Virus record (IMG/VR): IMGVR_UViG_3300026292_000006
Span: 1 to 64,000 of that record
DNA from: a virus
Reading direction: 5' to 3' (one strand)
DNA: 64,000 bases
The notes beneath the pieces were generated by a model. That model made no database searches. It saw nothing but the letters and a program-made list of their open reading frames with translations, and had not been told where the DNA came from. This document shows positions 15,197 through 37,800 of this stretch, piece after piece. The translations under genes and the position numbers were made by a program. Numbering within the stretch: position 1 is the first letter of the stretch; each line of letters begins with the position of its first letter.

Positions 15197-15203
15197 TATT
15201 TAG
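15197..15203 (-). promoter_or_regulatory. Late promoter variant (CTAAATA)
   Basis: CTAAATA overlapping the stop of the upstream gene, ~23 nt before the next ATG. Confidence 0.5.
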
Positions 15204-16803: not shown

Positions 16804-16810
16804 TATTTAG
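16804..16810 (-). promoter_or_regulatory. Late promoter variant (CTAAATA)
   Basis: CTAAATA at the gp7 stop, immediately upstream of the YHYH gene. Confidence 0.4.
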
Positions 16811-19800
16811 ATGTCATCAAAGATTTGTGTTGGACTGAAGTTGGAGATTACAGTTGCACCAGTCTGGACTGTTAGGACAGCAGATAGTGAGTAAACTGGG
16901 GTTGCACCAGATGCTGTGATAGCGACTCTGTATTCATCACCATCATCATTTTGTGCGGTATTACCTGTGTTATAAGTTGCTTGGTTAGCACCAATAATGT
17001 TGCTCCATGTTTGTGTGCCATACTCTTTCTTCTGCCACTGATAATTCATTGTCTCATCGTTAGTTACAGTAGAAACAACTGTGAATCCAGCAGTCTGACC
17101 TTGGTTAACAGTTACGTTAACTGGGTCTGTAGCGATTGCGATTGTGCCAGGAGTAACTCCACCACCCTCTTGTCCTTCTGGACCTTCGCCAGCGAGAACG
17201 TCAAATCCACCGTTGATAGGACTACCAATAGGAGGTGTCCAATCGTCTGGGACTTCGTTATCAATTGCAACAACAGGAGACTGGTAACCAGTACCAGCAG
17301 TCTTAACATCAACACGAGATACACCCATAAGTGCCTTCAAGCGAGCATCAAATCCAGAGGAGGAGATAACGTCAACGTTAGGACGTGAGGTGTAACCATC
17401 ACCAGGATTGGTTAGTACTGCGTTAGTAAGTTGACCAGATGTTATGTTAGCAAGAGCAGCAGCATTTCTACCCTTAACAGATCCAGTGTATTCAAATGTG
17501 ATTAAGGAGTTAGAAGACTCAATTAGAGCAACTTCTCTGGAGAATTCTTCACCCTCTATATCGAGGTTATCACCAGCTTCGATTGGTGGGACAACAGTTG
17601 CTGCGATAACGTCTGCGTCACTACCAATGTATGAGAAACCAACGAATGTTGCACCGAATCTTGGGACTTCAGCGAAGATGATACGTGAACCAACAATCTC
17701 GTATGCGATACCTGGTTCCTGAATAATACCGTTGAGTGAAACGATAATATTATTCTCAGGACGGATGACGTTAGAGGAAACACCCTCAGTCAATGTCAAG
17801 GAGTAGAATAGACCTTGACGCTTGAGGTTGAAGGAAGATCTCAATGAGTCAAACTCGAAGGAGATGTCATCTAACTGACGTAGTTTACCAACATAGTAAC
17901 CGATGTATTGTGAACCAATTACAGGTGGCTCAGTAAACTGAATCTTATCAGAGAATGCAACGTATGCATTAGTTGCACCTGGAGGTTGTAGAATACCATT
18001 AACAAATGCGAGTAAGTGACCAGCAGGGTCTGGGAAGTATGCTTCACCATTAGCAACAGTAAGGTCAAATGTAGTTTGGACTCCATCGAATCCTCTGAAG
18101 TACCTATTAACACGACCTTCAAGTGTGCGAGCAGATGAAACGGCACCACCCCATCCATCATCAGAGATGATACTCATATTATCTACGAATTCACCAACTG
18201 CATCTTCTACCCAAATAGTAGCAGTAATACCTTGTTGCTCGATAGCAACAACCTTAGCGTAAGATGAGAAATCAGTAGTTGTGTAACTAGAAACACCAGC
18301 ATAGATTGATGGGAAGTTAGACCCAACAACCAACTTACCAATGTTATTATTGGGGTCAGTTATCTCAGAGATAGGAGCACCAATTCCAACTGGAACTAGA
18401 TTACCAATCCAAAGTTTGTGAATACCATTATCAGGGTCATTAGTATACTTGGTTACAGTTGCATGGAATCCTGGATTCTTCTCTGTTGTACCTTGTAGGA
18501 GGATAACCTCATCACCAACGTTGAATGTGTCATTAACACCAGTATCAATAATAGCAGTGCCAAGGTTTAATTCGTAAACTGCACGACCGTGGACAAACTG
18601 GTTAAGTTGAATCTGTGTTCCACTGATACCCTTAACATCTAAGATGTAAGAAGTAACACTACCGTAAATAACGTCTCCAGGAACCCATGGATCCTTAATT
18701 GTTTCAACGTCAATTGTGATACGACCACCAGTGTTACCAGTTAGACTACCAGACTTATTAGCAAATTCAGAGATATAACCCTCAACAGAAGAATCTCTAT
18801 CGAAGAACCAGTCACCCTGATTAAAGCTTCCCATCTTAAGATTTGTGAAGAAGCGATCTGATGAACTGTCAACAGTAGCAGTAGTGCCACTTGTAGTACC
18901 TTCAAGGACATCATTCTGGTTAATTGCTCCTGAGATTGTATGAATCTTCAAGAAGGATGTGCCTGTCTCACTAACTGCACCTGCTTGTAATACAAATCCT
19001 TTATTGGTTACTGCACCCTGAACCACAACCTCTTCACCGTTAGTGAATGTCTGATAAACAGAGTTATTTTGTGACTGATTAGAAGTTACAAAGTGAGTAA
19101 AGATTTGTCTGATGTTTGCTGCATTCATTGTGATAGCAGATATCTCAGCAGAAGCATCAGATGTGCCTCCGAAGATAACATCAGCAGGGTTGAATCCACC
19201 TTGAATTGGAGTTACAGATGGGTCTGATGGATATGTAGGAGCAGTTCTATTAATACCACTACGTCTTTCAACAGCAAATATTTGAGCACCTGAGTTAGAA
19301 GTATCTAACTGGAAGGTTCTGAAACGTCCATCATGAATTGGTGATACACCAATCTCAAACCACTCAGCAGTAGCAGTCAAGCAATAGAAGTATGGTTGAG
19401 TTGCTAATCCTTGTAAGGATGTCTGAGATGCAGGGATGTAACTTAGTATGTCACCACGTCTAAAGTTGTTAGCACGATTGATACGGACTCTATATTCTGC
19501 TCTTTCAAATCCAACTTCAACTTCTGGAGTTAGTAGGACAAGTGCAGGGTCTGTATTCCAATCCTTACCTACTTCATACTTGTTGCTTAGGTTAACAACG
19601 TCAGTAGATGAGATGAATTGGATTCTTGCTTCAGTAGCAAATGTAGATCTTTCAAGAGCAAATTCAATTGGGTTGAGTGAAGAGTCAACCATAAATTCAA
19701 CAGCTTCCTGATTCCACTCGAATCTATCGGTTGGAATGTATACATCATAGTTTGCCCATACAGCATCAGATGTATGGAGATACATTACAGACTTGATATA

Positions 19801-22800
19801 CTCACGAATGCGAGTTAAGCAATACAAGATGTGAGATCTAGTTGTTGTTGGGAATGCAATAAATGTGCCTTCTCCATCAAACCATCCTTGAGATAGTTTA
19901 AATGCACCAGCATTACCACCAGTTACCAAGTCATATCTAACTGCCTTAAGGACATCGAGTGCGAAGTCAATAGTTAAGTTAGTAGTTGGATACTGTTGTT
20001 GTGTCTCAGTGAATGCTCTCTGTGATATAGATTGAGTGTTAAAGAGTAAGACATTAGCAACACGCTTCTGGTTAACCATTCCAGCACCAAGAGTATGAGT
20101 CATGATGTCGAATAAAGTCTCAGTTGCAGATGTGCAATCGTAACAAGTACCTGCTTGATATACTGTATTTCCGTTGTATGGGAATGTCTTAGTTACACTA
20201 GCAGTTAAGTAGTTAACATTATTCTCTGCTGCCTCTCTAATAGTATTGATAAAGATATCAGTTAGGGTGCTAAGAGCAGATGCAGATTCTGGGCAAGTTT
20301 GATTCCAGTTACCAACTTGTCCTGATCCACCATTATTAGCATCCCAAGTAACAGACAAGTCTCTAACAACAACATCAGGTGTATACTTGATAGGCCAACA
20401 GATTGGCATCTGATATGCACGTCCATTAACTATACCAGGATTCTGAATACCATCAGTAACAAACTGAATTAGAGAAGTAATTTCACTTTCAACATTAGAT
20501 GATTCTGTACCTGTATAGTTGTAATCAACAAGTCTTCCTCTCCAGTATTCTAGTTTTGTGCTAACTGGGTAAGCCCATGAGTTAACAGCAGTAATAGGTA
20601 AGACTCTATCATCTGCATAGTCAGTTGCACGTGGATAATAATGATTAGTTGCATTCTGGTCACTTGTGCAAGTGAATACAATTGACCTAGGAGCAAGAGT
20701 AATATTGTCATTCTGAGTCAATGTATGACCAACAACAGTAAGTGTTAGGTCACCTGTTACAGGATTATAGTAACCATCTGTAGGTGTTAGTTGTACTCCA
20801 CTATCAACAACAGTGATAGCATTTGAAGCACCAGATACCCATGTGTGTCTGTAGTCACCACCCTTGATAACAGCACCGTTGATAGCAGATACAAATGTAT
20901 GTGCATAACGGTTACCAACTCCACCAATACCAACGTTAATTGTAATAGTACCAGTCTGTTTCTTAACTCCACCAGTCTTAGCAGCCACGAAGGTATGGTC
21001 AGACTTATCAGGAGATTTACCCATGAATAAGTCGAATGTAGTTGCAGTGCAATTGCTGACTGCTAACCATTCATCGCTACCAGGATCAGTTGCTCTTGGA
21101 TATGCATGGATAGACTCATTGTCATCTCTATCACATGTCATATGAATTGCACCATCTTCCAACCAGACATAAGTATTTGCTTTCTCAATACCATTTGAAG
21201 TAGCAGATACAAACTTATGGTCGTAGTTACCACCACCAATCAATACTCCAGGTATTGCACTGACAAATGTATGTGCATACTGATTATTTGCAGCAGCAAC
21301 ACCAACGTCTAATGTAATCCAACCATTCTGTCTGTGGACACATCCTGCAACAGCAGAATCAAATGTATGAGTAAAGTCACCACCAACCTTAACAGCACCA
21401 GAGGTTGCAGATACAAATCTATGCTCTCCGAGGTAAGTAGCAGCACCAACATCGATAGTAATTTCAGAATCCTTCCAATGAATACCATCAGTAACAGCAC
21501 TTACAAAGGTGTGTGTATATTGACCACCACCTGATACAGCACCAACTGATGTACCACCAGCCCAGTTGTGGACTGAAGTATTAGAAGACTTACCAATGTT
21601 AATGGTAATAGTATGACCAGTTACAGAATGAATAGGAAGTGCAGTGTCATAATATGGATCCTTCTTATGAGTAATTCCGTTAGCAGATGCAGTTTGGAAT
21701 GTGTGAGCAGTTACGTTAGTTGAAGGAATAGTATCCAATACAACTACGTCAAATGTATTAGTAGTTACGTCACGAATCTGAATCCACTTACCGCTAATTG
21801 GGTCACTGCTACGTGGATAAGTATGGTCACTACCATTACTATCCTGCATACATCTGAATGTCAGTGAATTATCAGCAATCTTAATCCAATCATTTTCATT
21901 GTATCCATGACTTGCAACAGTCAGTCTCAAACGACCTGTATTTGGATTGTAATCAGCAGCAGTAACTGTAGACTGAGTAACTCCAGCAGCACGAGGATAT
22001 GTATGAGTAGTAGAGAAGTTGTCCTGAGCACACTTGAATGATAATCCATCATCAACAAGTTTGACGGAAGATGTTGCTCTATGAAGACCATTAGCAACTG
22101 CACTTGAGAATACATGAGTATGCTGACCACCACTGATTACACAGTTTTGTGCAGATGCAGTGAGGACAAAGTTATGTGCAGTAGTATCTGTAATAGCACC
22201 CTGTCCACCGTTAACGTTGAGTGTTATGGTTGTGCCAGTTACAGCAGTGATTGTTATTGCAGTGTCATAAACATAGTCACTACCACCAGTACCAGTTGCA
22301 GCTGATCCAGCAGCACGAGGATATGTCTTCTGAGTTGTGTTACCGTCACCATTGTAATCACAAGTGAATACTAAGGAATCTGCGACGAGTTTAACACTCT
22401 CATTAACCTGTAGATGATGGTCACCGATTGTCAAGACCAAATCACCACTTGTAGGACTGTAAGTAGCGTTAGTTACACTGAATGTTTCTTGAGGAGTGTT
22501 ACCAACATATACATCAAATGTATTGGTTGTTATATTCTCAACATCTACCCAAAGGTCTGCTAGTGGGTCACTAGGACGTGGGTATGTTTTGTTAGAAATA
22601 TTACCATCCATTCCACAGTTGAAGCTGATGCTATCAGGTGTGAAATGTACTCTGTCACCAATTACAAAACCGTGGTCTGGGACTGTAACAGTCATCATAC
22701 CAGTTACAGCATCATAAGTTGCACCTGTAATAGTATGTGCAGAAGCAGACCTGAATGGATGAGGACCTATATCCAGAGTCATTAGACCAGTGGTAGGCTC

Positions 22801-25800
22801 ATAAGTTGCATCACTTACGTTGTAAGGTGCAAGAGGAGTTGCTCCAACATTTACATCAAAGTTATTACCAGATACGTTGGAAATCTCAAGATACTTGTTA
22901 GATGCAGGGTCAGTGCTACGTGGATATGAGTGCTGAGTAGCATGTCCATCCATATCACAAGTGAAGATAATGGAGTTATCTGCTAACTTAATCATATCCC
23001 CATTACTGAATGGGTTGTTAGCAACAGTCAGTGTTAATACACCAGTAGTTGCAACGAATGATGCAGCAGTTGCAGTATACTTAGCATCTCCAGTATTCTC
23101 AATTACGATTGAATGGTCATATGCTCTGTCACGCTTTTGCTTAATGCTACTACCTACAGCAGACTGGAAGGCATGTGTATAAGCACCACCAGACTTGAAT
23201 GCTGCACGTTTGATAGCACCCTTATGAGCACGGATAAATGTATGAGCAGAAGTATTAGTAGAAGGAGTCTTATCGAGAACCTTAACACGGAATGTGTCAG
23301 TAGTTACGTTATCGATAGTTAACCATGTGCCAGATGAATAATCTGTAGGACGTGGATATACATGCTCAGTAGCATGTGAATCCTTATTACATGTAAAGAC
23401 TAAACTGTAATCCTCAAACTTAATTGCTTCACCGTTTGCCATACCATGATTCTCAACGGTAACAGTCATAAATCCTGTTGTGCCATTGTAAGAAATAGCA
23501 GTAGGTGTTACACCAGCATGCTTAATGAATGTATGAGCAGTTGTGTTGGTAGAAGGAGCACTACTTAAGATATTGAAGGAGATGCTACCTTGCTCAACAG
23601 CAGTAACTGTTACTGGAGTATTATATGCAGGGTCAGAAGTCCTTGGATATGCATGTAAAGTCTGATGATTATCTTGAGCACAAGTGAATACAAATCCTTC
23701 CTTAGCAATCCAAATCTTCTCACCAACCTCAACGTTATGAGGTCCTGTGATGACCTTCATCACACCTGTAGATGGGTTGTAATCAACATCTTGTGGGTCG
23801 TAACCTATGAATGGAGTCTTACCAACATTCACATCGAATGTATCAGTTGTTACATTCTTAAGTTTTAACCACTTACCAGATACAGGGTCAGAGGAGCGAG
23901 GATATGTATGGTCAGATGTATTACCATCAAAGTCGCAACGGAAGGTTAATCCATTATCATCAATCTTGATTAATGATCCATCATCAAGACCATGACCTGC
24001 AACAGTAAGAGTTAGATAACCAGTATCTCCATTATAAGAAGCATTGGTTGCAGTATGAGTATCAATAGTTGTGCGAGGATATGTATGGTTGCTACCGAAG
24101 CTGTCCTGAGCACATGTAAATGTTAGAGAACCATCTGCTAACTTGATATTCTGACCAGACTTAAGGTTATGAGCACCAATGTTAAGCTTTAACTTACCAG
24201 TATTAGGATCGTAATCTGCATCATTAACATTCTTAGTAGTATTAGCAGTTGTGCCAACGTTAATTCTAATAGTGTTAGCATCAACAACACTCAATTCTCT
24301 CCACTGTCTGCTAACTGGGTCAGATCCACGTGGATATGCTTTAGCAGATGAGTTACCATCCATTGTGCAAGTGAAGAGGATTGAATCATCCTCAATCATT
24401 ATCTTGTCACCAGCAGAGAAACTATGACCAGTAATTGTTAGGTCAAGGTTACCGTTAGATGGTGTATAAGATGCACCTGTTGGAGTATGGTGTGTTACAC
24501 CATTGCTGATAATCTTAAGAGACTCCTTATATGCAGGGTCAGTTACACGAGGATAAGTATGCTCAGTAGCATTACCATCCATTGAGCATGTAAATGTTAA
24601 TCCATCAGTAGCAAGTGAAACAGTATCATTTGCCTTCATAAAGGTTGCAAGAAGGACACTGTTTGTAGCAGCAGACTTAAATGTATGAGCAGTTGTGTTA
24701 GTAGATGGAGTGTTATTTAATACTTTAACATCAAATGTATCGTTAGTTCTAGCTAAGACTTTCAACCATCTATCGTTAGCTGGGTCAGTCTTTCTAGGAT
24801 AAGAGTGATAAGAAGCACCACTATCTTGCTGACATGTGAATGTGACAGCACCCTCATGAAGTTTGACATAGTTACCAATATGAATTCCATGATCTGCAGA
24901 AGTGATAGTCATCACACCTGTTGATGGATTATATGCAGCATCAGTAGGAGTGAGGTGAGTAGCAGATACAAACTTATGGTTATAATCACCACCTGTGTGG
25001 ATTGCACCAGAGTTAGCACTTACAAATGCATGAGCATAGTTACCACCAGCAATCACTGGAGTTAATCCAGCAGTACCAACGAAGATATGTTGTGTCTGGT
25101 TAGAAGACTTACCAACGTTAACACGAATCTTACCAGTCTGATGGTGAATACCATTAGCATCAGCAGATACAAATGTATGATTGTATACATCATTAACACC
25201 AGATATACCAACGTTAACATCTATAGTAGTTGCCTGAGCATTAGAAACTGTTAACCACTGGTCAAATGTTGGGTCAGTGACACGTGGATATGTGTGGTTA
25301 GTAGCGTTGTTATCCTTATCACATTTCAGTGTAATAGAATGAGGAGCAATCTTAATTCTGTCTCCATTAGACACACCATGAGATGCACCAAGAGTAATGG
25401 TCATTACACCTGTAGTTGGGATGTAATTTACATTAGTTGCTGTCTTTCTCTCACGAGTTACATCTTCAACCTTGATTGAATTCTGATAATATGGGTCAGC
25501 ACCAGCAGTGATTGCTAAATCACCAGAGTAGTTAGAACCAGATGCTCTAGGATATGTGTGGTTACTACCATGTCCATCCTGAGCACAAGTAAAGATTAGA
25601 GAATCATCGTCAATTCTGATTGAATCACCATCTCTCCATACAGCGTATGTGTGGACAGAAGATGCAGCAGCAGACTGGAATACGTGAGTTGTTACGTTAG
25701 TAGAAGGTACGTCAAATAAGACTTTAACATCAAATGTATTCGTTGTTACATTCTCAATAGGAATCCACTGACCAGATACAGGGTCAGTATTACGTGGATA

Positions 25801-28800
25801 TGGATGATCTGATGATTGACCATCTTGGTCGCAACGGAAGGTTACTGCATTATCATCAAGTTTAACTCTATCACCTTCAAGTAAACCATGACCATTAATA
25901 GTCAGAGTCATGATACCTGTTGTTGGGTTGTAACCAGCGTTAGTTGGAGTTAGAGCATTTTCAGCAACGAATGAATGGACGTGGTTTCCACCAGTCTGCA
26001 CACATCCACTAGCAGCAGATACAAATGTATGCTCAGTTGTATTAGAAGAAATACCAACCATCAATGTAACTGTGCCATCAGGTCTCTCAACACCAGAAGA
26101 CTTAGCAGATACAAATGTATGAGTAGAAGTGTCTTGAGACTTACCTACATGGACATCAAATGTATTTTGATTAACATTAGAAATAGGTAACCACTCATGA
26201 TGAGATGGGTCAGACATTCTAGGATATGCATGGTTGGTAGCATTACCATCCTTAGCACATGTAAATGTAATGGACTCAGGATCCATCTTAATCTTATCAT
26301 TTGCTTTCCAGATACCACCTTGAGAACCTGAGCTGAAGGTGTGGACTGTATCGTTAGTAATTGCATTATGTCCGAAGAAACGTCCAGTTGTGATATCAAA
26401 GTAATCACCTGTTACGTTATGGACAGTTACCCACTTACCGCTAATTGGGTCAGTGCTACGTGGATAGGTATGAGTTGTAGAATTATCATCCTTCTCACAT
26501 CTCCAAGTAACAGCACCATCTGTAAGCATGATTTTGTCTCCATCATGCAATCCATGACCTTGGACAAACAGGGTCATGACACTGGTTGTTACATCATAAC
26601 TTCCATCAGTAGCAGTCATAGTAGATGGAGCAGTAAACCCATGATTAGGTACTGTCAATGTCATTATACCCAACTGTGGGTTATAAGCTGCTGTAGTTAC
26701 TGTATGGAGAGATGTGCCAACTGAATGGACTGGAGTAGGTTTGTTATAAACTGGGTCAGCACCACTATTAAGAGTGTAGTTAGAACCAGATGCTCTAGGA
26801 TATGTGTGGTTAGTAGCATGGTCATCCTGAGCACAAGTAAATGTTAGAGAGTTAGTTTGTACTTTAACTGCATCACCACCCTTGATGATGTTTCCTCTAT
26901 GAATACTATTAGCAACAGCACTCTGGAATACATGAGTAGTTGTGTTTGTGCAAGGGACATTCTCTAGGACTTGAATACTGAAGTTAGTATTAGTGCAATT
27001 AAATACCTGAATCCACTTACCTGAAACAGGGTCAGTAGAGCGAGGATATGCATGGTCACTTGCTTGACCATCTTGGTCGCAACGGAATACTACTGCATTA
27101 TCAGAAATCTTAATGTAGTCACCATCTGAGAGGTAGTGAGTACCAGAAGTGATAGTCATCACACCAGTTGCTGTATCAAATGTAGCACCTGTAGGTGTAA
27201 TGCCAGTCTCAGGAATGAAGGTATGAGCAGACTGGTTAGTAGATGGGACAGAATTCAATACTTGGACATCAAATGTATCCTTAGTAACGTTAGTAACATC
27301 TAACCACTGAGTTGCAGCAGGGTCACCAACACGAGGGTAACGGTGCTCACTAAACCCACCGTCAAGGGTGCAATTGAAGTTGATAGAATTCTTAGCAATC
27401 ATAACTCTATCACCATTGCTGAATCCGTGGTCAACAATAGTAAGAGTCATAATACCCGTAGTTGGGTTATATGCAGCACTTGTATTATGATGTGTCTCAG
27501 GACCTTTCAACCAGTTGTTGCCCAGAGTCATCTTCATCAAACCTGTAGTAGGTGTGAAGTCAACAGCAGAAGGAGTTAAATTAACGCTAGTTGACATACC
27601 AACGTTAACATTAAATGTATTTGTTGTAGATCCAGTTACAGGTAACCATTGTCCAGCAACAGGGTCTGTAAGTCTTGGATATGAGTGCTCAGTTGCATTA
27701 CCATCCATGTCACATGTAAAGGTCAAGCTGTTAGGCTTAATCTTAACCATGTCACCATTACCAATATTATGTCCATTAGATGTGATGGTCATAATACCAG
27801 TAAGAGGATTATACTGAGCATTACTTACTGGATATCTGCTACGTCCACGTAAATCATGATTACCAATATGTAATACTAAGTCACCTGATAGAGGATCGTA
27901 ATCTGCATCTGTTGGTGTGAAATTAACCTGAGGTGTAGTACCAACATTAAGAGTAATACTATTAGAAGTTGTGCCAGTAATTGCAATAGGCTCATTATGT
28001 ACTGGGTCAGTTATCCTAGGATATGGGTGAATGGACTTATAGTTGTCCATTGCACATGTGAAGTTAAGAGAGTAAGGTGTAATCTTAACGTGTGTACCAG
28101 TGCTTAATTGGTGAGCACCAATAGTAAGAGTCAACTCACCAGTTGCTGAATTATAAGAAGCACCTGATGGTGTGAAATGTTTGATAGGAGACTCACCGAT
28201 ATTAACCTCGAATGAATCCTCAGTAGCATTCTCTACTGCCAACCACTTACCACTTGCAGGGTCAGTAGACCTTGGATATACGTGGTTAGTATAATGGTTA
28301 TCCATGTCACATGTGAATGTCATGGAGTTATCCTGAATCAGGATCTGGTCACCATTACCGAATCCATGCTTAGAAGCATGAATCTTAAGCATACCTGTTT
28401 TAGCGGTAAACTCAGCATCAGTTGCTACATGGTTAGTTGCCTCAACAAAGTTATGGTCACCAACATCAAGCATTAATTCTCCAGTTGCTTGGTCGTAGGT
28501 AGCATTAGAGACATCATATTCTCTCTTAGCAGTTTGACCAACTTGGACTTTAAAAGTATTGAGTGTTACTTCTTCAATTGCTAACCACTGGTCGCCAGCT
28601 GGATCCTTCTCTCTAGGATATCCATGATTAGACCCATGATTGTCCTGAGAGCATGTGAATACTAAAGATCCAGTATGAATCTTAACTTGGTCACCAGTAC
28701 TGAATCCATGTCCAGGAATAGTTACTTCAAGAATACCACTGTCAGGGTCATAGTCAGCATCAGTTGCAGTATGAGTTGTAGAATCAGCGAAGTTATGACT

Positions 28801-31800
28801 TGGTACTGTAACTGTCATTACACCCGAATGTGGGTTGTATGCAGCATCAGTAGGAGTGAATGGTAGAACTCCAACATCAATAATATCTACTGCTGTATTA
28901 CCAACAGGGTCACCAGAGCGAGGATATGAATGATTAGTAGCATTACCATCTTGTGTGCAACTAAAGATTAAGGAATTAGTCTTAAGTTGAATCTTAGTAT
29001 TATTAGTAAAGTCATGTGAACCAACATTCAATACTAGGTCACCAGTGCTTGCATCGTAATCAGCATGTGATACATCGTATGCAATCTTAGGTGTAGGTCC
29101 GACATTAACAACGAATGTATTAGTCTGTACTGGCTCTCCGTTTGGACGTGAGCTGGTAGTAACACCGAATCCAGCATAATCTGCATCAGCAAAGATACCA
29201 CTACCACCAGTTAAACCAGTGTTAGTCTGACCAGGTGTAGTTGCTTCACCAACAGGGGTGCCATCAATCCACATCTTAACACGTCCTGGACCAGTACCGA
29301 TGTCACCACCAACACGAATCTCAAATGATATTTCGTGGTCACCACCATCAAAGTAAGATGTTAGATTACTAATTTGTAGGTCAAGCATTGCAAGACCAGT
29401 ATCTGATGTATAAGAAGCACCACCAGAATATGAATTTGTTGCAGTACCTGCACGAAGTCTTAGATATGTGCCACTGTCTCTGATACCTAACCAAACACCA
29501 GAAGTTGCACTACCTGCTTCAAACAATGTGCAATCTACAGGAGAGGAACTTGGAAGTGTAGTTACAAGACGGAATACAGCATCTTCATCAGGTGTAATAC
29601 CAATACTACTATCTGAAGTGGAAATATTAGATTCACCGAAACTAAAGTCTCTAGTTAGGCTATTATTCATAGTGGTTGTAATACCACCACCTCCACCACC
29701 AGCACCTTGTCCAGTACCAGCTGGGTTAGAGATAAACAGTCTGTTAGTAGGCTTAGGTGTTGCGTCGTAGAATCTTTGATTTACTGAGTGACCAGCATTA
29801 TTAGTAATAATCTGATCCTTCATCGCACGGATTGCATATTCTTTTGCCTTATTAACAATCCATACAGACTCAGTTGCCTGAGATGTTACGTGTAGTAAGT
29901 TACCACCAGAGTTAACATAGAATTCTGTACCATACTGTAGGTAGTTGTTTCCACCATACTTAAGGTTGAATACCATTGCACGGAGGATATCAGTTACGTC
30001 ATGGACGCAGTTGATAGGACCACCAGGAATGTTTAACGACGGGAATTGTTTAGTGCCTTCTGCAACCGCTTGTTCAGCAATATAGCGTATGTTTCCATCA
30101 ATAGCATCTCCACAAAGTTTATAAACTTCTTCTCTAGGATTCTGCTCATAAGTTTCTACAGGTTTGAATTCTGGGTTACCCTCATCATGGTAGTCTCTAC
30201 CTAATGCATTACGCATTACAAGAGCACACATATCACGAAGTAGTTTAACTACAGTGATAGATGCTTCCCATTCACCTTCGATATGCTTAAGTGAGTTATC
30301 CTCTGTTTCGATATACAATGCAGCAGCATCGTATGTTTTCTCGTTACAGTCATACTGTATATCATGACTGATAGAATCAATCATGTCAAGTACGTCATCC
30401 TCACAGTTAACAGCCCCGCCAGGAATGTTGAGTCCTTCAAACTTAGAAAGGTCATTCATGACTCCAACAACTTCTTTAGCAATGACGTGCTTGTTACGTT
30501 GAATCATTTCAACAGCATCAAGGAATCTGTCATTTTGTGAGCGAGTTGCATAAGGGAATCCTTCATCCTCAATTACAATTGTGTCATCTCTATATGCAGT
30601 ATTAGTTGTGTATAGTGGTGAATAGTAATCCTCCTGAACTTGAGCAGGAACTCCAAACTCAGCAGCAACTTCACCTGGAGATAGAAGAAGGTTATTAAGT
30701 GCCTTCATGCAAAGCATCTTGGCAAACTCAATAGCGTCAAGCATAGGATTAATCTCATGCTCAACATGTAAAATGTTCTGGTTGGAATCTAGGTAGTTAT
30801 CGATGACATGTTGTGTCTGATAAGTACCACCTGTGCAAAGGTCATTAATTACAGCTGGGAGAATATGGTCTTTAATATCTCTCTCACAATATGGTTGACC
30901 ATATCCAGGCATTTCAAGGAAATCATAATTAGTAGAATTGATTGTCTGCTGATACTTGTTCTGAATATACTCAGCAGTTTCTTCTGCAATATAATCTCTA
31001 TTCTTCCAGATCAAGACACCTGAATCTCTAAACCTAACATCGTTAGGAGCAACAACTTCAAGTAAATCTCTACCTAATGCTTTAATATAATCCTGTACCG
31101 CAGTAGATGCAGGTGTAGAGAAGTTATTAGGTACTCTTAATTTACTTGTGTATGTACCAGCAAGATCTGAGCTTGTAGTTGTCAAGACTGTGATACAAAG
31201 GTCAACAACTTTATCCCATGTATACAATGCTTGAAGCACTTCTTCCTGAATGTGATCTAACTTACCTGAAGCAGTTAGATAAGTCCTTGCAGTATAAAGG
31301 GTATGATAGTTTCCACCTTCATGAAGGTCTTTAATGATAGCACCTAAGATGTAATCTTTAGTGTCTCTAATACATGTATTGGTACCACCGTAGAAATTAG
31401 AAGCAGGATCGTCACCTCTAATTGTAAAGTCACTAAACGTAGCCTTCATCATACCAACTGCTTCTTCAGCAATCCAAGGACCATTAAGGTCAAGGATATC
31501 TGCACAGTTTCTATATTCTTGACGACCTAAGTCAACATCTTCAATAATGATATCACGCTCATCATAATCAACTTTCTTAGCAGTAGCAGAAGAAGTATTC
31601 TGTCCAGTGTAAGTTGCATATACAGAAGTTGTAGATACAATAAATGGTGCTTCACCATCTAATCCTAGGACAATATTAAGTTCGTTAGGATCAAATTGAT
31701 TAGAAGGTGTAAATCCAGAAGAGTGGTCAGCAACACCTTTCTTAACGTAGAAGTTATCAATATGTCCAGTCCATCCACTTAAAGTCTGGAATGACATTCC

Positions 31801-34800
31801 AAGCCAGAATGGTGCATATTGGTAATCATTATTATCAGTCCAGTTAGCACCAACTTGAGCACCGTTAACATATGCCTGAGTAACGTTAGATGATCTAACA
31901 ATCTCAATATGATACCAAGTACCAGTTGTAGTGAATACGTTAGTAGAAGAGATACCTAAAGTTGTGCCATTATAAACTTTTAATTGTTGTCCATCAAAAC
32001 GGACATTAAGTCCAGAGTTAACATCAAGACGACGTAAATCAAACAGATATTGAGTACCAACGTTAACTCCTGGTCTAAACCAACCAGAGATAGTAAAGTC
32101 ACCTGTACCGAAGTTATAATCGTAACTATCAGCAGCAGCGATATATCCAGATGTAGGAATGTATATTGACTTAGTTCCTGTCAATTCTGGTTTCTTAACA
32201 ATCACAGACTGTGTTACAGCACCTTGGACTGTTAAGGTAGAATTGGTAATAATTTCATTTAACTGGAAGTTTCCAGTGATACCTGAGGTAAATATCCACT
32301 TAAGACCAGAGTTAGCACCAATAGAAGTAGCACTAGCACCAGATGTTACACCTTTAATTACATCACCAGTAGCAAACAATCCAGTGGACTTATCCTTATA
32401 TGCAAGTTTTGTAGTTCTTACAGTCTCACCATCTTGGAATGTACCATCTGTGATGCTTGCAAGTGCATTAACATTGGTAAGGTTACCAGCAGTCATTGCA
32501 GTAGTTGCAATACCAGCTAAGGTGTCAATATAGGTCTTAACGTTTGCACAGTTAGCAATATCCTGATTATTACCTGTACCGTAGTTTGCATCGTAACGAT
32601 GTGCAGGAGCAGTACCACCAGAGTAAGTAGTTGGGTCATTTAAGTTATATCCAATACCACTTAAATCCTTCCAATACATCAAGTTATTGATAGCACGTTT
32701 CGCCAATTCTGCTGCTTGTGTGAAAGCATGAACTGCTTCTGCTTCTTCACCAACAATACCGTTAGTTAGAGGCACACCAGCGTCATCGAAGAATTTCTTA
32801 GTGAATTCAACAATATTAAAGTTACCACCAGATCCAAGGTCGTTAGCAAGAGCATCAATCATATAACCAAGGTCACGACGACACTTCTCTTGGTGAGGTG
32901 AATATGTGCCTTCTGTTTCATCAGGCAATTCACCAAGGTTACCATTAGTAAGAGTAGTCTCTACAATATTCCATAAAGTAGTAACTGCTGCTTGGACATC
33001 AGAGCAATTGTTAGCATCGGTATTTGAAGCATTACTACCGTTTGTACCGTAATCATCGCCAGGTGAAGGGTCAGCAGTAATAGTAGTGTCTTGATATGCA
33101 GTCCAAGAGTCACCAGAGTTTACAGCACTGATTGTTCCTGAATACTGGTTAGCAAGAGCAGCATTCATTCTATCAGTCGCTTTTTCGTAAGCAAACTTAG
33201 TTTCTGCACTTTGGCCATTGATGTATGTGAAGGTGCCATTTACATCGAAGTACTGCTGACAGAACTTACGAGTATAGCGGTTACCACCTGCATACATGTC
33301 AATTGCTAATGCATCAACGAAATATTCAATATCTCTCTTACATTTTGCATCTGAAGGAATAGAAGAGCTAGGATACTGCGTCTTCATATCATCAAATGCC
33401 ATTCCAGCAATCATTGCTTTATTCTTCTGAATTAAGCGATATGCGTCTTTAAATCTACTCCAGTTGTTAGTAATAACATCTGAAGGGAAATAATAGTCAG
33501 GATAGTCAATTGCAATGCTTGCTTCGGCAAAATCGATGATTTCTTGCTTATTATTAGCAACGTTACGTTTTGCGTCTAAAAATCTGTTTCCAGCGATTCC
33601 GTGGAATGTAGAAACGGGGTTTCCATAATCTACGTCTTTAGAAACGATTCTATCGCCAACTTCGATATTTCCGTTAGCAAGATTGGTATAAGTGATTTCT
33701 GTAGTTCTTACTTCTTCAAAATCAAGGAAATCAGCGTTAATACGCTCTTCATCATTATAAAGCTCTGTAGGAGTAATAGAAGACTGTGAAATGTCATCTA
33801 GGATAACATTTGGATTTTCAAGACTTACAAGACGCTCAAACAGTAATCCGAAGAAAGTAGACCCTCTATTAATGATTAATTCGTCAACAACCTCAGAAGT
33901 GATAGGATCAACGTATGGAGAGATAAATGTAATCTGTCCAGCAATCTTAGAAGATGCAGAGTAGATATACTCGTTAAGTTTAAGATCAAAGATACCAGTC
34001 TCAAATTTAGCAGTACCTGAAGTCTTAGAAACAACTAGACGGTCATTTACAACACCATCGACAACGTTAGTCTCTTCAATGATAGCAGTGTCACCTTCAA
34101 GGTTAGTAACACTTTCACCGAATCTAAAGATAGTTTCAGTGTTAACTAGAGTTACAGATTCAACTAGAGCAGAGAAGATTTCACCTCTTACAATTTCTTC
34201 GTTAAGTTGGAAGGTACCAGGACCGACATTAATAACATCAATATGATTCAATCCTGAATCAATTACAGTACCAAAAGCATCAGAGAATACACCTTGGACT
34301 GTTTGTCCTAAAGTTGGGAAAATACCGTAGTTAGATCCACCACCAGAAGTGTAAAGTGCAATTCTGTAGATAGGTGTAGGAGTAACTCCTAAGATTCTAT
34401 AGTTAACTTTAGATGCTGGTTTAGGTGGCTCAGAGAATACTAAGTTAGGACCAACAACTTGATAAGATTCACCAGGTGCCTGAATAACACCGTTAAGTGT
34501 AATCATCAACTGATTCTGTTGGACAATTACTTGCTCACCTTCAACAGTAATTGGGAATTGCTTGTCTATACCATTAAACTGTGGTGAAATATCATCTAAT
34601 TTCTTAACAATAGAAGTTAAGATTTCCTCAGAAGATGTCAAACGCTTCTTACGGAAGAGAACCTCGGTATTGTTGTAATCAGTATAGATTGGTTGTGCAG
34701 CACCAAATGATGTGATTTGGTTTACATTACTATAGTTGTTAATGTTAACCTGTTTAGTAAACTCAGTACCAATCTTACGTCCAGATACGTCCTTACCACC

Positions 34801-37800
34801 AGTCAGTTGTAACTGACCAAACATGTTGAAACCTGCTGGGTGGTTATTCTCAAGGACTTGAGTTTTCCACTCAGTAATTGGTGTTTCAGACTTAACAACA
34901 TAAGAGAAATTCTGATAGAAGAAACTATCTTGAATCTTCTGGACAATCTCAGATGGTTTACCAATATCATCGATGAATCTACCTGGAGTTTCAGTTAGAG
35001 AACCAATATTCAATACACCACGAGCAATACTCAAGTTATCGATAATACCAGATGCTTTAGAGATAATACCAGTTACCTTTTCACCTGCTTTCCAATCACC
35101 AGTATAATCAACAATCTTAAGAATCTTAGGACCTATTTGCCAACCAGTATTTGTAGAAACAATACCTGTAGCAGTAGAAGTTTCAACAGTAGATCCTTGG
35201 AATACTTCTTCACCTTCAAGGAATCTGGAGGTTTCTACAACAGCAGTTGCTTTACCACCAAATACTTCAGTAAGAAGTGTCTGACGACCTTCACCTTGAG
35301 TTAGGAAGGTAATATAATCACCAGCTTGTGCTGATTGTAAAGTAAGACCAAATCTTATCTGGTCAGATTCAAGACCTGCTGCTTCACCAGCAATAGCATA
35401 GTAAACCTGTCCTTCAACCAAACTGGTTAAACCTGCGGTACTTGGTTTTGGTAATTCACCAACTGTAGTACCAATTGTATCTGCCCTAAACTGAACTTCG
35501 GCACCAGTTGTAATACCGTGCGGGAAGTTAAATTGTAGATAATTAAGGTCTAAGTTAACAACGTAGTTAAATTCTGATTTAAGAGTAACAGTTGGTTCAG
35601 AAGAGTAACCAGAACCAGGATTCTTAATGATAATCTCATTAAGACGATTATTCTTAACAACTGCTTCAGCAGAAGCACCAGATCCACCACCACCTGTGAT
35701 TACAACAGCAGGAGTTGAAGTATATCCAGAACCTGGATTTGTGATAGTAATCTGACTTAGAATTGAAGTATTAAAGAGTTGTAAGTTAACAGGGAATGTA
35801 ATCTCTGGTTTTAGAGTATAGTCATGAGAATAACCGAAACCAAATTCATTATTCTTCAGTCTCTTAATCTTACCAATATTAGTACCTGTTAAGAATACAG
35901 ATGCACCTGTGCCTTCTTCTGGAATAACAACATTAACTGCACCACCAGAACCTGCTAACTGACTACCCAATATACCAGGAATAGCATCAATATCAATAGA
36001 TGCAGTTGTATATCCTTTACCTGGGTCAGTTACAGCAACGTTGGTTAGTGTGCCAGATCCAACAGTATCATCAACTTCAACGGTAACAGTACACTTAGCA
36101 CCTTCACCATCTCCAGCGATAGGGACATCATAGTAAACACCTGGAGCATATTCAGTACCACCAGAGGTAATAACAACCTTCTCAATCTGTCTGAATGATG
36201 CAATGTCACTAATGATAGGTAACTTCTGATAGAAACCACCAGCAGATACCAGTTTAATACTATTGATAGGTCCAACTGCTCTTAGAGAAGTAGTTGAATA
36301 ATAGGAATATGGATTATCAAATTCGTCGTTAATTATTTCAGCTGATTGTCTCTCTGGCTCTTTAAGTAGAGGGAATTTGAATTCAGTATCACTTACAATC
36401 TCAGAGATTGCAAAGGTACCATCGAAAGGAGTTGTGATAACATCGATGAATGAATTCTCCCCAACAGGTGAATTAGCACCAACCCTAGATGGGTCAAAGT
36501 AGTAAGAGATATTAGTTACATCACCCAATACAGAGAATTTAACGAATGGGTAAGATCCACCACCAGAAGGAACACCAGGAGTACCAGACCTTTCAATGTT
36601 ATTGAAAGAGTATTCTAGTTTATACTGGTTATCTTGAGAGAATGATAGGTAATATCCGAAGTTAGTTGTATCAGAGATATCAAAGACATACTGATGACTT
36701 CTAGTAAATTCTAATGTAGGATGCTTCGCATATATGTTAATGTTACTAATAGCATTAGCATTAAATGCAGGATCATCTAGTGCAACTTCTCTAATACCAA
36801 ATGTAAATTCTCTAGTGCCAATTACTTGGTCAACAAAGAAACTACCATTGAATTGTAAACCTTGGAATCCTTCAGTGAATAGAATATCACCTACTTTAAA
36901 TCCATGAGCACTATTTGATGTGCAATAGATTTGATTAGTTCTGGCCGTTGCTGTGCGTATGAGGTCTTTTTCCAGACGAGCAGTAACAGTTATCTTCTTA
37001 ACTGATGCAAACCCAGAGATAACAACACTCTTCTCATCTTCAGCAACAGTAACGTTACCAGAGTTAAGACTTACAACGTCTTCTGGAATATAAGTTGATC
37101 CAGGATGAATCTCTTGAATTTGGACTGAATAATTATTACCTTGGTCATAAGGAAGATGTCTTGTATAAGTGGCAATGGATTCGCTAGTAGAAACGTGACT
37201 CCAAGTTACACCACCATCTGATGCATCTCCAGTATCATGAACAGGTGGTGTAGTGCCAGCAACTCCAGCACCACCCGATGCAACGGTATAAACGTTTAGT
37301 TTATGCCAAACTTTTTGTCCTTCAACATATAGAAGACCACTATCCCATTCAGGCATATCCATGCCAAGATACTGAGGACGTGGATAAGGATGCTGAGTTA
37401 AATCAATAGTAAACTTACCTGCATCATCAATGAATGCCCAGTTGATTACGCCATCACTCTGGACACCAGCAGTATGTTCTGGAGTAATAGTACCAGAAGT
37501 ACCAGCACCTTGTGCTTCGTAAATCTTCTTATCACTGTATACTCTATCACCCTGAGCATATGCTGTACCTGCTGCCCAAGGAGATTCAGGCTCTTCAGTA
37601 TTGAAATATGTACCAGCAATCTGGTTAACATCACCAACATCAGTCCTATAACGGTCTGTGTTATTGAATGTACCGTAAATCTTACCAACTTTATACTTGG
37701 TGCCAACACCAGGATTTAATAGAGTTCCTGTTGGAACTTCTACAATGGTGCCATATGCTTGAGTTACACCAGCTGTGTTGAATTGTTGGATAATAGAACC

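What the first reader, a model, noticed from the sequence alone, without database searches (positions are those of the whole stretch)
20580..29125. Recursively nested ('matryoshka') domain tree inside the giant gp7: 27 domains inserted into each other's loops, balanced like parentheses
Seen: the repeat unit splits into segments A (TPTxAxYxPxTGxMTLTxxxH), B (GDxIKI..SLxFxCxxD..HxYPR..DP), C (WLxIxxVT), D (NTFDVxVG) and E (HTFVSA..GI). They are mostly not in tandem. Units open and are interrupted at a few fixed loops (after A, inside YPR-DP, after C, after D, inside E), and the missing segments reappear later in strict last-opened-first-closed order. Example: 1ABC[2A[3ABCD[4A[5ABCD[6ABCD[7A[8ABCD[9A[10[11]]9BC[12A[13]12BCDE]9DE]8E[14]]7BC[15]7DE]6E]5E[16]]4BC[17...26 subtree]4DE]3E]2BCDE]1DE. 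The runs of isolated GGxYxHxFVSA and GxITxxVG..HTFVSA near 20.8-21.6 kb are the closing brackets. The outermost unit is circularly permuted: D (TNTFVVNVG, ~29.1 kb) comes first, E-A-B-C last (~20.6-20.85 kb). My hand parse accounts for all 27 YPR cores at a depth of about 12. Inference: one polypeptide folds into a branched, dendritic array rather than a linear fibre, possibly a multivalent adsorption appendage on the baseplate. I know of no description of nesting this deep in a phage protein.
Basis: partly seen in the sequence, partly recalled or inferred. Interest (0 to 1): 0.95.

Follow-up and report, generated by a model that had tools for sequence, protein, structure and literature searches.

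The report
Twelve-deep nested barrel domains in cyanophage gp7
A 9,580-residue baseplate protein of a T4-like cyanophage carries 27 copies of a small beta-barrel domain inserted into one another's loops to twelve levels, about twice the deepest protein nesting I could find in the literature, and related cyanophages use the same design.

Summary
Window 16807-45549 (- strand) is one 9,580-aa ORF at the gp7 position of a T4-like cyanophage baseplate cluster. Residues 5477-8323 hold 27 copies of a ~100-aa unit with segments A-E.

- **Parse.** Ten units are intact and 17 are split into 2-3 pieces. HMM/PSSM tokens give A 27, B 27, C 26, E 27, none outside the region. A deterministic stack parse closes with 0 violations at depth 12. 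A first-in-first-out parse gives 28 errors, and up to 200,000 shuffles per null model never parse.
- **Permutation.** Only one of 107 rotations parses. In it the outermost unit is circularly permuted.
- **Structure.** AlphaFold2 models of two sub-trees build a unit split after D, and one split after A, as single barrels around their guests. The barrel resembles the E1 FCCH and phage endosialidase barrels (Z up to 8.0, in the range the tool calls common for unmatched models).
- **Spread.** P-SSM4 and P-SSM2 gp7 and dozens of IMG/VR contigs show the same nesting.
- **Precedent.** The deepest nesting I found in print is six levels, in cyanobacterial RNA polymerase SI3.

The nesting is well supported. 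The branched three-dimensional shape and an adhesin role remain inference. Other first-stage notes of this scan describe the same stretch.

The parts
16807..45549 (-). Giant ORF, 9580 aa, at the gp7 (baseplate wedge) position
   Evidence: PHROG 701/2885/18802 virion structural or baseplate wedge. Neighbours are PAAR-like and gp6-like upstream and gp8/9/10-like downstream. P-SSM2 and P-SSM4 homologues are annotated gp7.
20581..29121 (-). Nested barrel tree, aa 5477-8323, 27 units. Also the span of unit 1 (depth 1, circularly permuted): D aa5477-5484 (nt 29098-29121), then the whole tree, then E-A-B-C aa8232-8323 (nt 20581-20856)
   Evidence: Only this rotation parses.
20884..29070 (-). Unit 2 (depth 2): ABC aa5494-5559 | DE aa8200-8222
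20980..28854 (-). Unit 3 (depth 3): A aa5566-5587 | BCDE aa8124-8190; the two pieces lie about 2,540 aa apart
   Evidence: Split halves co-folded with weak support.
21202..28767 (-). Unit 4 (depth 4): ABCD aa5595-5671 | E aa8108-8116
21256..28509 (-). Unit 5 (depth 5, three guests): A aa5681-5701 | BC aa6973-7014 | DE aa8077-8098
   Evidence: D placed by eye
24961..28425 (-). Unit 6 (depth 6): ABCD aa5709-5785 | E aa6855-6863
25015..28170 (-). Unit 7 (depth 7): ABCD aa5794-5870 | E aa6837-6845
25072..27915 (-). Unit 8 (depth 8, three guests): A aa5879-5900 | BC aa6640-6698 | DE aa6806-6826
   Evidence: Collinear paralogue of unit 10 with its guests.
25960..27825 (-). Unit 9 (depth 9): ABCD aa5909-5984 | E aa6522-6530 (weak E, NHVHSFVAE)
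26014..27573 (-). Unit 10 (depth 10, three guests): A aa5993-6012 | BC aa6225-6277 | DE aa6492-6512
   Evidence: AF2 sub-tree model has pLDDT 50-83 on these pieces.
27208..27483 (-). Unit 11, intact leaf (depth 11), aa6023-6114
26917..27195 (-). Unit 12, intact leaf (depth 11), aa6119-6211
   Evidence: VIA hits on model residues 125-230.
26104..26697 (-). Unit 13 (depth 11): A aa6285-6305 | BCDE aa6416-6482
   Evidence: Two VIA rows span model 289..504 with 67-68 aligned residues.
26326..26613 (-). Unit 14, intact leaf (depth 12, the deepest), aa6313-6408
   Evidence: VIA hits on model 318-428, Z 7.5.
25669..25947 (-). Unit 15, intact leaf (depth 9), aa6535-6627
25162..25440 (-). Unit 16, intact leaf (depth 9), aa6704-6796
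24670..24948 (-). Unit 17, intact leaf (depth 6), aa6868-6960
21352..24483 (-). Unit 18 (depth 6): ABCD aa7023-7099 | E aa8058-8066
21406..24222 (-). Unit 19 (depth 7, two guests): AB aa7110-7159 | C aa7475-7487 (degenerate) | DE aa8028-8048
   Evidence: C and D placed by eye
23158..24051 (-). Unit 20 (depth 8, two guests): ABCD aa7167-7243 | E aa7456-7464
23518..23796 (-). Unit 21, intact leaf (depth 9), aa7252-7344
23227..23505 (-). Unit 22, intact leaf (depth 9), aa7349-7441
21496..23073 (-). Unit 23 (depth 8): ABCD aa7493-7569 | E aa8010-8018
21553..22815 (-). Unit 24 (depth 9, two guests): A aa7579-7599 | B aa7828-7853 | CDE aa7963-7999
22099..22728 (-). Unit 25 (depth 10): ABCD aa7608-7683 | E aa7809-7817
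   Evidence: AF2 model of aa7604-7824 has pLDDT 85 and pTM 0.71; VIA rows span 1..221 with 73 aligned residues.
22159..22473 (-). Unit 26, intact leaf (depth 11), aa7693-7797
   Evidence: rows spanning model 85..204
21688..21963 (-). Unit 27, intact leaf (depth 10), in the YPR-DP loop of unit 24, aa7863-7954

Best explanation
Residues 5477-8323 of the gp7-position baseplate protein form one polypeptide built by recursive domain insertion.

**What is shown**
- The unit is a ~100-residue beta-barrel of about eight strands: A is a hairpin, B is three strands ending in H-x-Y-P-R, and C, D and E are one strand each.
- Its N- and C-termini are adjacent in the fold, so a whole unit can sit in a loop of another.
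- Four loops accept guests: A|B, YPR|DP, C|D and D|E.
- Guests are themselves hosts, which gives a rooted tree of 27 barrels. A five-barrel trunk (units 1-5) leads to two main boughs, with 10 intact leaf barrels and a maximum depth of 12.
- Every parent-child junction is held by two short covalent linkers of about 5-13 residues.
- The root barrel is circularly permuted (cut in its C|D loop), so the whole tree hangs as an insert in the rest of gp7.
- Part of the tree grew by copying a split unit together with its guests into itself (unit 8 and its grandchild unit 10).

**What is inferred**
- Folding must proceed from leaves to root, because outer barrels cannot close until everything inside them has been made.
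- The conserved His (A), Cys and His (B) and His (E) may form a metal site that clamps the separated pieces.
- The array is probably displayed at the baseplate periphery, once per gp7 copy, as a multivalent binder of host surface glycan or as a rigid spacer.
For: **Parse.** A, B and E each number 27. The LIFO stack parse gives 0 errors against 28 for FIFO, one of 107 rotations parses, and no shuffle parses. The brackets are typed (A|BCDE, ABC|DE, ABCD|E and three-piece units), so the order of closers tests last-in-first-out, not just equal counts.

**Linkers.** Parent-to-child and child-to-parent gaps are 5-13 residues, against 0-3 inside units.

**Structure.**
- AF2 of aa7604-7824 (27-row alignment) gives pLDDT 85 and pTM 0.71, with the closing E piece at pLDDT 86-90.
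- VIA-align matches ~75-residue contiguous barrels (4p22_B Z 8.0, rmsd 2.5, 73 aligned; 4hiz_A Z 7.7, rmsd 2.0, 73 aligned) to a model range of 1..221. That range covers the N-terminal ABCD plus the C-terminal E of the outer unit.
- AF2 of aa5990-6520 gives pLDDT 77. Two rows (9e7m_Ja Z 5.0, 68 aligned; 4ac9_A Z 4.9, 67 aligned) span model 289..504, which is split unit 13 around intact unit 14.
- BFVD models of S-SSM7 'baseplate wedge initiator' and M4SQ89 match the whole nested pair at TM 0.84 and rmsd 2.3-2.7 over 218-219 columns.

**Split halves.** The A piece (aa5560-5594) co-folded with its BCDE piece (aa8119-8198) scores ipSAE 0.52, against 0.01 for the best of 3 controls; verdict 'weak support'. 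The mark was reached by 58 of 80 solved complexes and 2 of 110 mismatched pairs. At 0.60 or under it was reached by only 7 of those 80 solved complexes and by both mismatches that passed. Runs agree in at least 94% of contacts, and partner pLDDT is at least 67. I supplied my own alignments, so the counts hold only roughly.

**Family.**
- The same nesting occurs in P-SSM4 gp7 (11 units, depth 6) and P-SSM2 gp7 (about 10 units).
- It also occurs in IMG/VR contigs. L013 parses with 0 errors (12 units, depth 5). L018 has 1 error (18 units, depth 9). Block-shuffle fractions are at most 0.003 for L012, L013, L014, L018 and L022.
- The 531-aa sub-tree of unit 10 is collinear at 40-42% identity in 12 independent contigs.

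**Growth.** aa6109-6442 aligns collinearly with aa6525-6823, with a 416-aa offset and 40-73% identity in 30-aa windows over the first ~150 aa.

**Conserved residues.** H22, C41, D44, Y52, P53, R54, D57, H90 and F92 are invariant in the 10 intact units. The A-piece His, the Cys and the E-piece His are invariant or nearly so across about 100 family pieces.
Against: - No atomic coordinates or contact maps were available. Assembly of split units is read indirectly, from alignment ranges and pLDDT.
- The three-piece unit 10 got only moderate confidence (pLDDT 50-83), and no fold hit spanned it.
- Similarity matrices of A pieces against E or B pieces under the LIFO pairing are not significantly correlated (p 0.19-0.92). 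Sequence therefore gives no independent proof of which A pairs with which closer.
- The co-fold test passed only weakly. Paralogous pieces would probably complement each other too, so it does not show specificity.
- The top fold Z of 8.0 sits at the upper end of the 7-8 that the tool reports as typical for models with no clear match, so the named fold is a lead.
- Shape, stoichiometry, metal binding and ligand are all untested.
Confidence: 0.8

Rival explanations
1. The nesting is real, but the 27 barrels pack into a compact or rod-like body (a two-pass, there-and-back stalk with side knobs). That body would serve as a rigid structural spacer or shield of the baseplate, not as an open dendritic adhesin.
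For: Each junction has two short linkers, which favours stiff domain-domain contacts. pTM is 0.71 for the two-barrel model. The trunk (units 1-5) and several runs (6-7, 18-19) are unbranched. Relatives hold tandem four-deep unbranched nests (L045, L053).
Against: Four units carry two or three guests in different loops, which forces branching. pTM falls to 0.52 for five barrels. The fold resembles a glycan-binding phage barrel. Unit number varies from 4 to 28 among relatives, as is usual for host-range parts (general knowledge).
Confidence: 0.3
2. The split pieces do not pair last-in-first-out within one chain. Instead they complement in another order, or in trans between gp7 copies (domain swapping), and so cross-link the baseplate.
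For: Pieces of one type are unlabelled, and the sequence-congruence tests for the LIFO pairing were not significant. Some relatives start with orphan E pieces and end with open AB pieces (L035, L039, L042, L046). Those could close in trans as well as by circular permutation.
Against: The typed closers appear in exact reverse order of the openers, with 0 errors against 28 for FIFO. Linkers of 5-13 residues leave no slack for other pairings. Monomer AF2 models close split units in cis.
Confidence: 0.07
3. The region is a decayed tandem repeat. The lone A and E pieces are remnants of eroded units with no structural partner.
For: The DNA copies are old (60-85% identity), and a few tokens are weak (E9, E19, E24, C19).
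Against: The counts are exactly balanced, and the invariant His of the A and E pieces is kept in the lone pieces. The topology is conserved at 40% identity across independent contigs. No shuffle parses.
Confidence: 0.03

Closest known systems
SI3 insertion of cyanobacterial RNA polymerase beta' (rpoC2): recursively nested hybrid-motif (SBHM) domains
   Same: One small beta domain family is inserted into itself recursively. Hosts are also guests, and some hosts carry several guests. It is described as a six-level recursive architecture of 8-10 domains, and is the most complex case shown in a survey of 2.7 million classified domains (PMC13114784).
   Different: SI3 is a different fold family; no RNA polymerase chain appeared among the top 50 fold hits. 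SI3 has half the depth and about a third of the domains. It is a cellular enzyme insert, not a virion protein. It has four fewer typed insertion loops described, and no circularly permuted root is reported.
Beta-barrel domain of phage endosialidases (K1F, phi92; Pfam PF12195 End_beta_barrel)
   Same: It shares the small barrel fold (4hiz_A Z 7.7, rmsd 2.0, 73 aligned; Z 7.2). It is a phage tail protein domain that is itself inserted in a host domain and binds sialic acid (general knowledge of endoNF structures). There is one weak Pfam hit.
   Different: There is no significant sequence match (17.5 bits against a cut-off of 35; none for single units). The endosialidase has a single copy, not a self-nested array. 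The His/Cys/YPR signature is not known there.
E1 ubiquitin-activating enzyme FCCH domain (Pfam PF16190), also annotated on some phage proteins
   Same: It is the best fold match (4p22_B and 9mc4_A, Z 8.0, rmsd 2.5, 73 aligned). It is also the nearest named ESM-Atlas cluster (score 0.91, 91% viral). FCCH is also an inserted domain.
   Different: There is no Pfam-level sequence match, and Z 8 lies within the range the tool calls common for unmatched models.
gp7 'baseplate wedge initiator' of Prochlorococcus phages P-SSM4 (7,312 aa) and P-SSM2 (5,195 aa), and 'virion structural proteins' of other Kyanoviridae
   Same: Same gene position, same domain family and same nested grammar.
   Different: They have fewer units (about 10-11) and shallower nests (depth 4-6). 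Identity is at most about 32%. I found no paper that describes their nesting.
T4 gp7 baseplate wedge protein
   Same: The gene order is gp6-gp7-gp8. There is a weak N-terminal Baseplate_wedge match (E 6.7e-6) and a PHROG 2885 match.
   Different: T4 gp7 is about 1,030 aa and has no such barrel array (general knowledge). The Pfam score of 26.2 is just under the cut-off of 27.

Membership tests
Recursive (nested) domain-insertion architecture, A1-B1-C-B2-A2 type | A host domain's sequence is interrupted by a complete guest domain and resumes after it | tested here: met
   17 split units. The parse gives 0 errors. AF2/VIA rows span the guest with about 70 aligned residues.
Recursive (nested) domain-insertion architecture, A1-B1-C-B2-A2 type | Guests are themselves hosts (recursion) | tested here: met
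   Depth 12, and 16 of the 17 hosts are also guests.
Recursive (nested) domain-insertion architecture, A1-B1-C-B2-A2 type | Split hosts still adopt the fold of intact copies | tested here: inconclusive
   Supported for a D|E-split unit and an A|B-split unit. The three-piece unit 10 is only moderately confident. No coordinates were seen.
RNA polymerase SI3 / SBHM (hybrid motif) family | Domain has the sandwich-barrel hybrid motif fold or sequence | tested here: inconclusive
   No RNA polymerase or SBHM chain is among the 50 listed rows of either VIA search. A family that is not listed is not excluded.
Pfam PF12195 End_beta_barrel | Sequence score above the gathering cut-off | tested here: not met
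   17.5 bits against 35 for one stretch. No hit for 10 single units at E up to 10.
Pfam PF12195 End_beta_barrel | Same fold | tested here: inconclusive
   4hiz_A gives Z 7.7 and 7.2, rmsd 2.0-2.2, 73-78 aligned. Foldseek on the PDB gives E 0.07 only.
Pfam PF16190 E1_FCCH | Sequence score above the gathering cut-off | tested here: not met
   No hit. Only a fold match at Z 8.0 and an Atlas feature score of 0.91.
T4-type gp7 baseplate wedge protein | Gene lies between the gp6 and gp8 homologues of a T4-like baseplate cluster | tested here: met
   phrog_219 (gp6-like) lies directly upstream, and wedge and connector genes lie downstream. P-SSM2 shows the same order.
T4-type gp7 baseplate wedge protein | Sequence match to the wedge domain (PF23786) | tested here: inconclusive
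   26.2 bits against a cut-off of 27, aa 689-734. PHROG 2885 matches strongly.
Structural metal-binding domain (His/Cys site) | Conserved ligand set brought together in the fold, with metal bound | not testable with these tools
   The ligand candidates are conserved, but no coordinates and no chemistry were available.

The most novel reading that the evidence does not exclude
gp7 encodes a genetically specified protein dendrimer. It is a self-similar tree of 27 barrels grown by copying sub-trees into themselves, and it folds from the leaves inward. Each barrel is clamped shut by a metal site whose ligands lie up to about 2,600 residues apart in sequence. The tree is displayed at the baseplate as a multivalent bush that grips the cyanobacterial surface. 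This would be the deepest recursion known in any protein, and a general, previously unnoticed building principle of marine cyanomyovirus host-recognition gear.
Probability: 0.4. Interest if true: 0.92.

Novelty: new variant of a known kind. Interest (0 to 1): 0.82.

Why it matters
**Precedent.** Recursive domain insertion is known, but the most complex published case I found has six levels and 8-10 domains (PMC13114784). Here one chain holds 27 domains at 12 levels, with four typed insertion loops and a permuted root.

**Spread.** The same grammar runs through a whole family of abundant ocean phages, including isolates sequenced twenty years ago.

**Questions it opens.**
- How does a chain fold when a hairpin must wait for about 2,500 residues before its barrel can close?
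- How does such an architecture evolve? Here there is direct evidence for self-copying of a sub-tree.
- Do double-linked domain trees give stiffness or multivalency that beads-on-a-string arrays cannot?

**Practical consequences.** Linear repeat finders and domain callers mis-describe these proteins. The architecture also points to the likely host-range hardware of Prochlorococcus and Synechococcus myoviruses.

Tried and rejected
**Sequence-family and structure searches**
- Pfam, NCBIfam-style and PDB sequence searches give no family for the unit. Pfam has no hit. A PDB profile search gives only a spurious iota-carbonic anhydrase match at E 6e-5 with 0 significant stretches. An NCBIfam call failed on a frame error and was not repeated.
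- Foldseek against the PDB finds nothing at E 0.001 or better. Only VIA-align gave usable fold matches.

**Searches for relatives**
- A search for close orthologues with identical topology finds at best 40-42% identity.

**Test of the LIFO pairing by sequence congruence**
- Mantel-type tests of A-versus-E and A-versus-B similarity matrices among split units were not significant (p 0.19-0.92).
- Only anecdotal reciprocal-best pairs turned up, for example units 2 and 5 in both A and E.

**Family-wide automatic parsing**
- Many relatives show 1-12 errors. These trace to missed weak E or A tokens and to ORFs cut by contig ends.
- Block shuffles are not significant for the error-laden arrays, nor for arrays with a single bracket type.

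**Structure limits**
- The three-piece unit 10 is not confirmed by the 531-residue model.

**Readings considered and set aside**
- Assembly artefact. The repeats are only 60-85% identical at DNA level, and independent contigs share the topology.
- Decayed tandem repeat (see rivals).

**Literature**
- Searches for a prior description in cyanophages found none.

Full report
**The locus.** The window holds a single open reading frame on the minus strand, 16807-45549, of 9,580 codons. Directly upstream on the coding strand lie a PAAR-like gene and a gp6-like wedge gene (phrog_219). Downstream come wedge and fibre-connector genes. The ORF matches PHROGs 701, 18802, 2885 and 5342, which are virion structural, baseplate wedge and tail fibre families. 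Translated searches find relatives in 315 Synechococcus and Prochlorococcus phage records. Among them are the genes annotated gp7 'baseplate wedge initiator' in P-SSM2 and P-SSM4. The finding's coordinates, 20580-29125, correspond to residues about 5475-8324.

**Checking the observation.**
- A profile built from five uninterrupted copies (103 columns) finds 39 whole or partial matches. All lie between residues 5495 and 8327, and none in the other ~6,700 residues even at E 1000.
- I cut the profile into segments: A (columns 1-22), B (23-52, ending YPR), C (53-68), D (69-78) and E (79-98). I iterated the models and added PSSMs for the short D and E cores.
- This gives 27 A, 27 B, 26 C and 27 E tokens. 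The best off-region E scores 8.5, against 9.9-27.7 for the accepted ones.
- D is too short to be reliable. At the threshold used it gives 27 hits outside the region, so I did not rely on it.

**The grammar test.**
- The parser is deterministic. An A opens a unit. Any other token must extend the most recently opened unit in the order A<B<C<E. An E closes the unit.
- Applied to the A/B/C/E tokens with the last A-B-C moved to the front, it consumes all 107 tokens with no violation, nothing left open, and a maximum depth of 12.
- Because units are cut at different places (A|BCDE, ABC|DE, ABCD|E, A|BC|DE, AB|C|DE, A|B|CDE), openers and closers are typed. The test therefore bears on their order, not only on equal numbers.
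- None of 20,000 permutations, 20,000 random interleavings of 27 ordered chains, 20,000 block shuffles or 200,000 shuffles of the 38 partial blocks parses. The minimum error counts are 23, 22, 3 and 1.
- A first-in-first-out discipline gives 28 errors.
- Only one of the 107 rotations of the token string parses. In that rotation the first D (aa 5477-5484) belongs with the last E-A-B-C (aa 8232-8323).
- Guests sit after A (9), between YPR and DP (2), after C (5) and after D (10).
- Gaps inside units are 0-3 residues. Gaps at host-guest junctions are a uniform 5-13 residues.

**Do the split pieces really form one domain?**
- I folded residues 7604-7824 (unit 25, ABCD, then intact unit 26, then E) with a 27-row alignment of like modules from the window and related contigs. 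The result is pLDDT 85 and pTM 0.71, and the closing E piece scores 86-90.
- A search of 48,161 PDB representatives with VIA-align gives, as best rows, contiguous ~75-residue barrels: 4p22_B and 9mc4_A (E1 FCCH domain, Z 8.0, rmsd 2.5, 73 aligned) and 4hiz_A (phi92 endosialidase barrel, Z 7.7, rmsd 2.0, 73 aligned).
- Those rows align to a model range of 1..221. The roughly 73 aligned residues are therefore drawn from the N-terminal ABCD and the C-terminal E. Other rows cover 85..204, which is the guest.
- A second model, residues 5990-6520 (unit 10 with guests 11, 12 and 13[14]; 34-row alignment), has pLDDT 77 and pTM 0.52.
- Most of its fold rows fall on intact units 12 and 14. Two rows (9e7m_Ja Z 5.0, 68 aligned; 4ac9_A Z 4.9, 67 aligned) span 289..504, which is unit 13's A piece plus its BCDE piece around unit 14.
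- The three-piece unit 10 is only moderately confident and is not hit.
- Independent predicted structures in BFVD match the whole nested pair at TM 0.84. They are a fragment of S-SSM7 'baseplate wedge initiator' and M4SQ89.
- I also co-folded the most widely separated pair as two chains: the A piece aa5560-5594 and its BCDE piece aa8119-8198, about 2,530 residues apart. The score is ipSAE 0.52 against 0.01 for the best of three controls, and the verdict is 'weak support'.
- On the tool's calibration, the mark was reached by 58 of 80 solved complexes and 2 of 110 mismatches. At 0.60 or under it was reached by only 7 of those 80 solved complexes and by both passing mismatches. Runs agree in at least 94% of contacts, and partner pLDDT is at least 67. 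I supplied my own alignments, so the counts hold only roughly.
- That test shows compatibility, not specificity, because paralogous pieces would probably fit too.

**What the unit is.**
- No Pfam family matches and no PDB sequence is significantly similar.
- The fold is a small closed barrel of the E1-FCCH, endosialidase-barrel and FNR-barrel kind. These Z values lie in the range the tool calls common for unmatched models, so the fold name is a lead, not a membership.
- The nearest named ESM-Atlas cluster is a viral 'E1 FCCH domain-containing protein' set (score 0.91).
- In 10 intact units H22, C41, D44, Y52, P53, R54, D57, H90 and F92 are invariant, and H50 nearly so.
- The A-piece His, the Cys and the E-piece His stay invariant or nearly so across about 100 family pieces.
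- These candidate metal ligands lie on different pieces of split units. A metal clamp is therefore an attractive but untested idea.
- The family is small: 703 representatives at E 0.001 or better among 1.84 billion clusters.

**A family trait.**
- The same tokens and parser were applied to 78 IMG/VR loci and two isolates, and nesting appears throughout.
- L013 has 12 units at depth 5 and parses with 0 errors.
- L018 and L019 have 18 units at depth 9, with 1 error.
- L045 and L053 hold tandem four-deep nests.
- L015 and L021 have 27-28 units and an opening topology like this gp7.
- P-SSM4 gp7 has 11 units at depth 6, and P-SSM2 gp7 has about 10 units.
- Where tokens are clean and brackets are typed, block shuffles rarely do as well (fractions at most 0.003 for L012, L013, L014, L018 and L022). 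Elsewhere, missed weak tokens spoil the test.
- Twelve independent contigs keep the 531-residue sub-tree of unit 10 collinear at 40-42% identity. The topology is therefore conserved, not decaying.
- Some ORFs begin with orphan E pieces and end with open AB pieces (L035, L039, L042, L046). These read as rotated nests like the permuted root here.

**How it grew.**
- DNA copies are 60-85% identical.
- Several repeat pairs share a 1,248-nt offset, a lead from another first-stage note.
- At protein level aa6109-6442 aligns collinearly with aa6525-6823. The identity reaches 40-73% in 30-residue windows over the first ~150 residues.
- The aligned stretch runs from the end of one unit through intact unit 12, then B and C of unit 10, then the A piece of unit 13. 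Its counterpart runs through unit 15, then B and C of unit 8, then the A piece of unit 16.
- Unit 8 is the grandparent of unit 10. A split unit with its guests was therefore copied into itself.

**Comparison with what is known.**
- A 2026 survey of 2.7 million classified domains reports that most insertions are single-level. It presents as its most complex case the six-level, 8-10-domain hybrid-motif nest in SI3 of cyanobacterial RNA polymerase (PMC13114784).
- The present array works the same way but is not a member of that family. It has twice the depth and about three times the domains.
- It is a virion protein, uses four insertion loops and has a permuted root.
- Six literature searches found no description of it in cyanophages. 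The searchable library lacks many subscription papers, so this is not proof of absence.

**Verdict.** The nested-insertion reading is well supported (0.8). The dendritic shape and the adhesin role are plausible inference. Recursive insertion itself is a known kind, so I rate this a new variant of a known kind, but an extreme and general one.

Noticed in passing
window 29860-33342 (aa ~4070-5230) and 19870-19962 (aa ~8530-8560): A second repeat family flanks the barrel tree. These are helical-looking motifs such as CKRDIEYFVDALAIDMYAGGN, CRRDLGYMIDALANDLGSGGN, CIRDTKDYILGAIIKDLHEGGNY and CERDIKDHILPAVINDLCTGGTY upstream, and LDVLKAVRYDLVTGGNAG downstream. Other first-stage notes claim these are split around the tree as a further nesting layer. 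I only saw the motifs.
   Followed up: no
window 29230-29682 (aa ~5290-5440) and 31744-32151 (aa 4467-4602): A Laminin_G_3/ConA-like domain lies at aa4467-4602 (Pfam E 1e-13). A similar-looking beta-rich stretch ends about 35 residues before the first D strand of the barrel tree.
   Followed up: no
window 40933-41367 (aa 1395-1539): A YHYH domain (PF14240, E 1e-27) sits in the N-terminal third of gp7. The downstream 532-aa ORF (15200-16798) shares this region through PHROG 2576/2885.
   Followed up: no
L035, L039, L042, L046 (ORF residues ~547-1480): Relatives whose barrel array starts with orphan closing E pieces and ends with 5 open AB units. These are whole nests that look circularly permuted, or that might close in trans.
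   Followed up: partly
L045, L053, L060, L070, L075, L078: Relatives built of tandem copies of a regular four-deep nest, [AB[AB[ABC[ABCE]E]E]E], up to six in a row. This is a different, periodic use of the same grammar.
   Followed up: partly
window 20580-29125, intact leaf units: Seven of the ten leaf units share a VLxxxPSTNxxxH(T/V)F link between D and E. Units with a guest after D instead carry GGxYxHxFVSA before the closing strand. The leaf-type loop may be the functional surface.
   Followed up: no
window 2930-10258 (-): A second giant ORF of 2,442 aa (phrog_358, unknown function) lies in the same tail gene block.
   Followed up: no
window 48322-48855 (-): A PAAR-like protein (phrog_281) lies just upstream of the gp6-like gene.
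   Followed up: no
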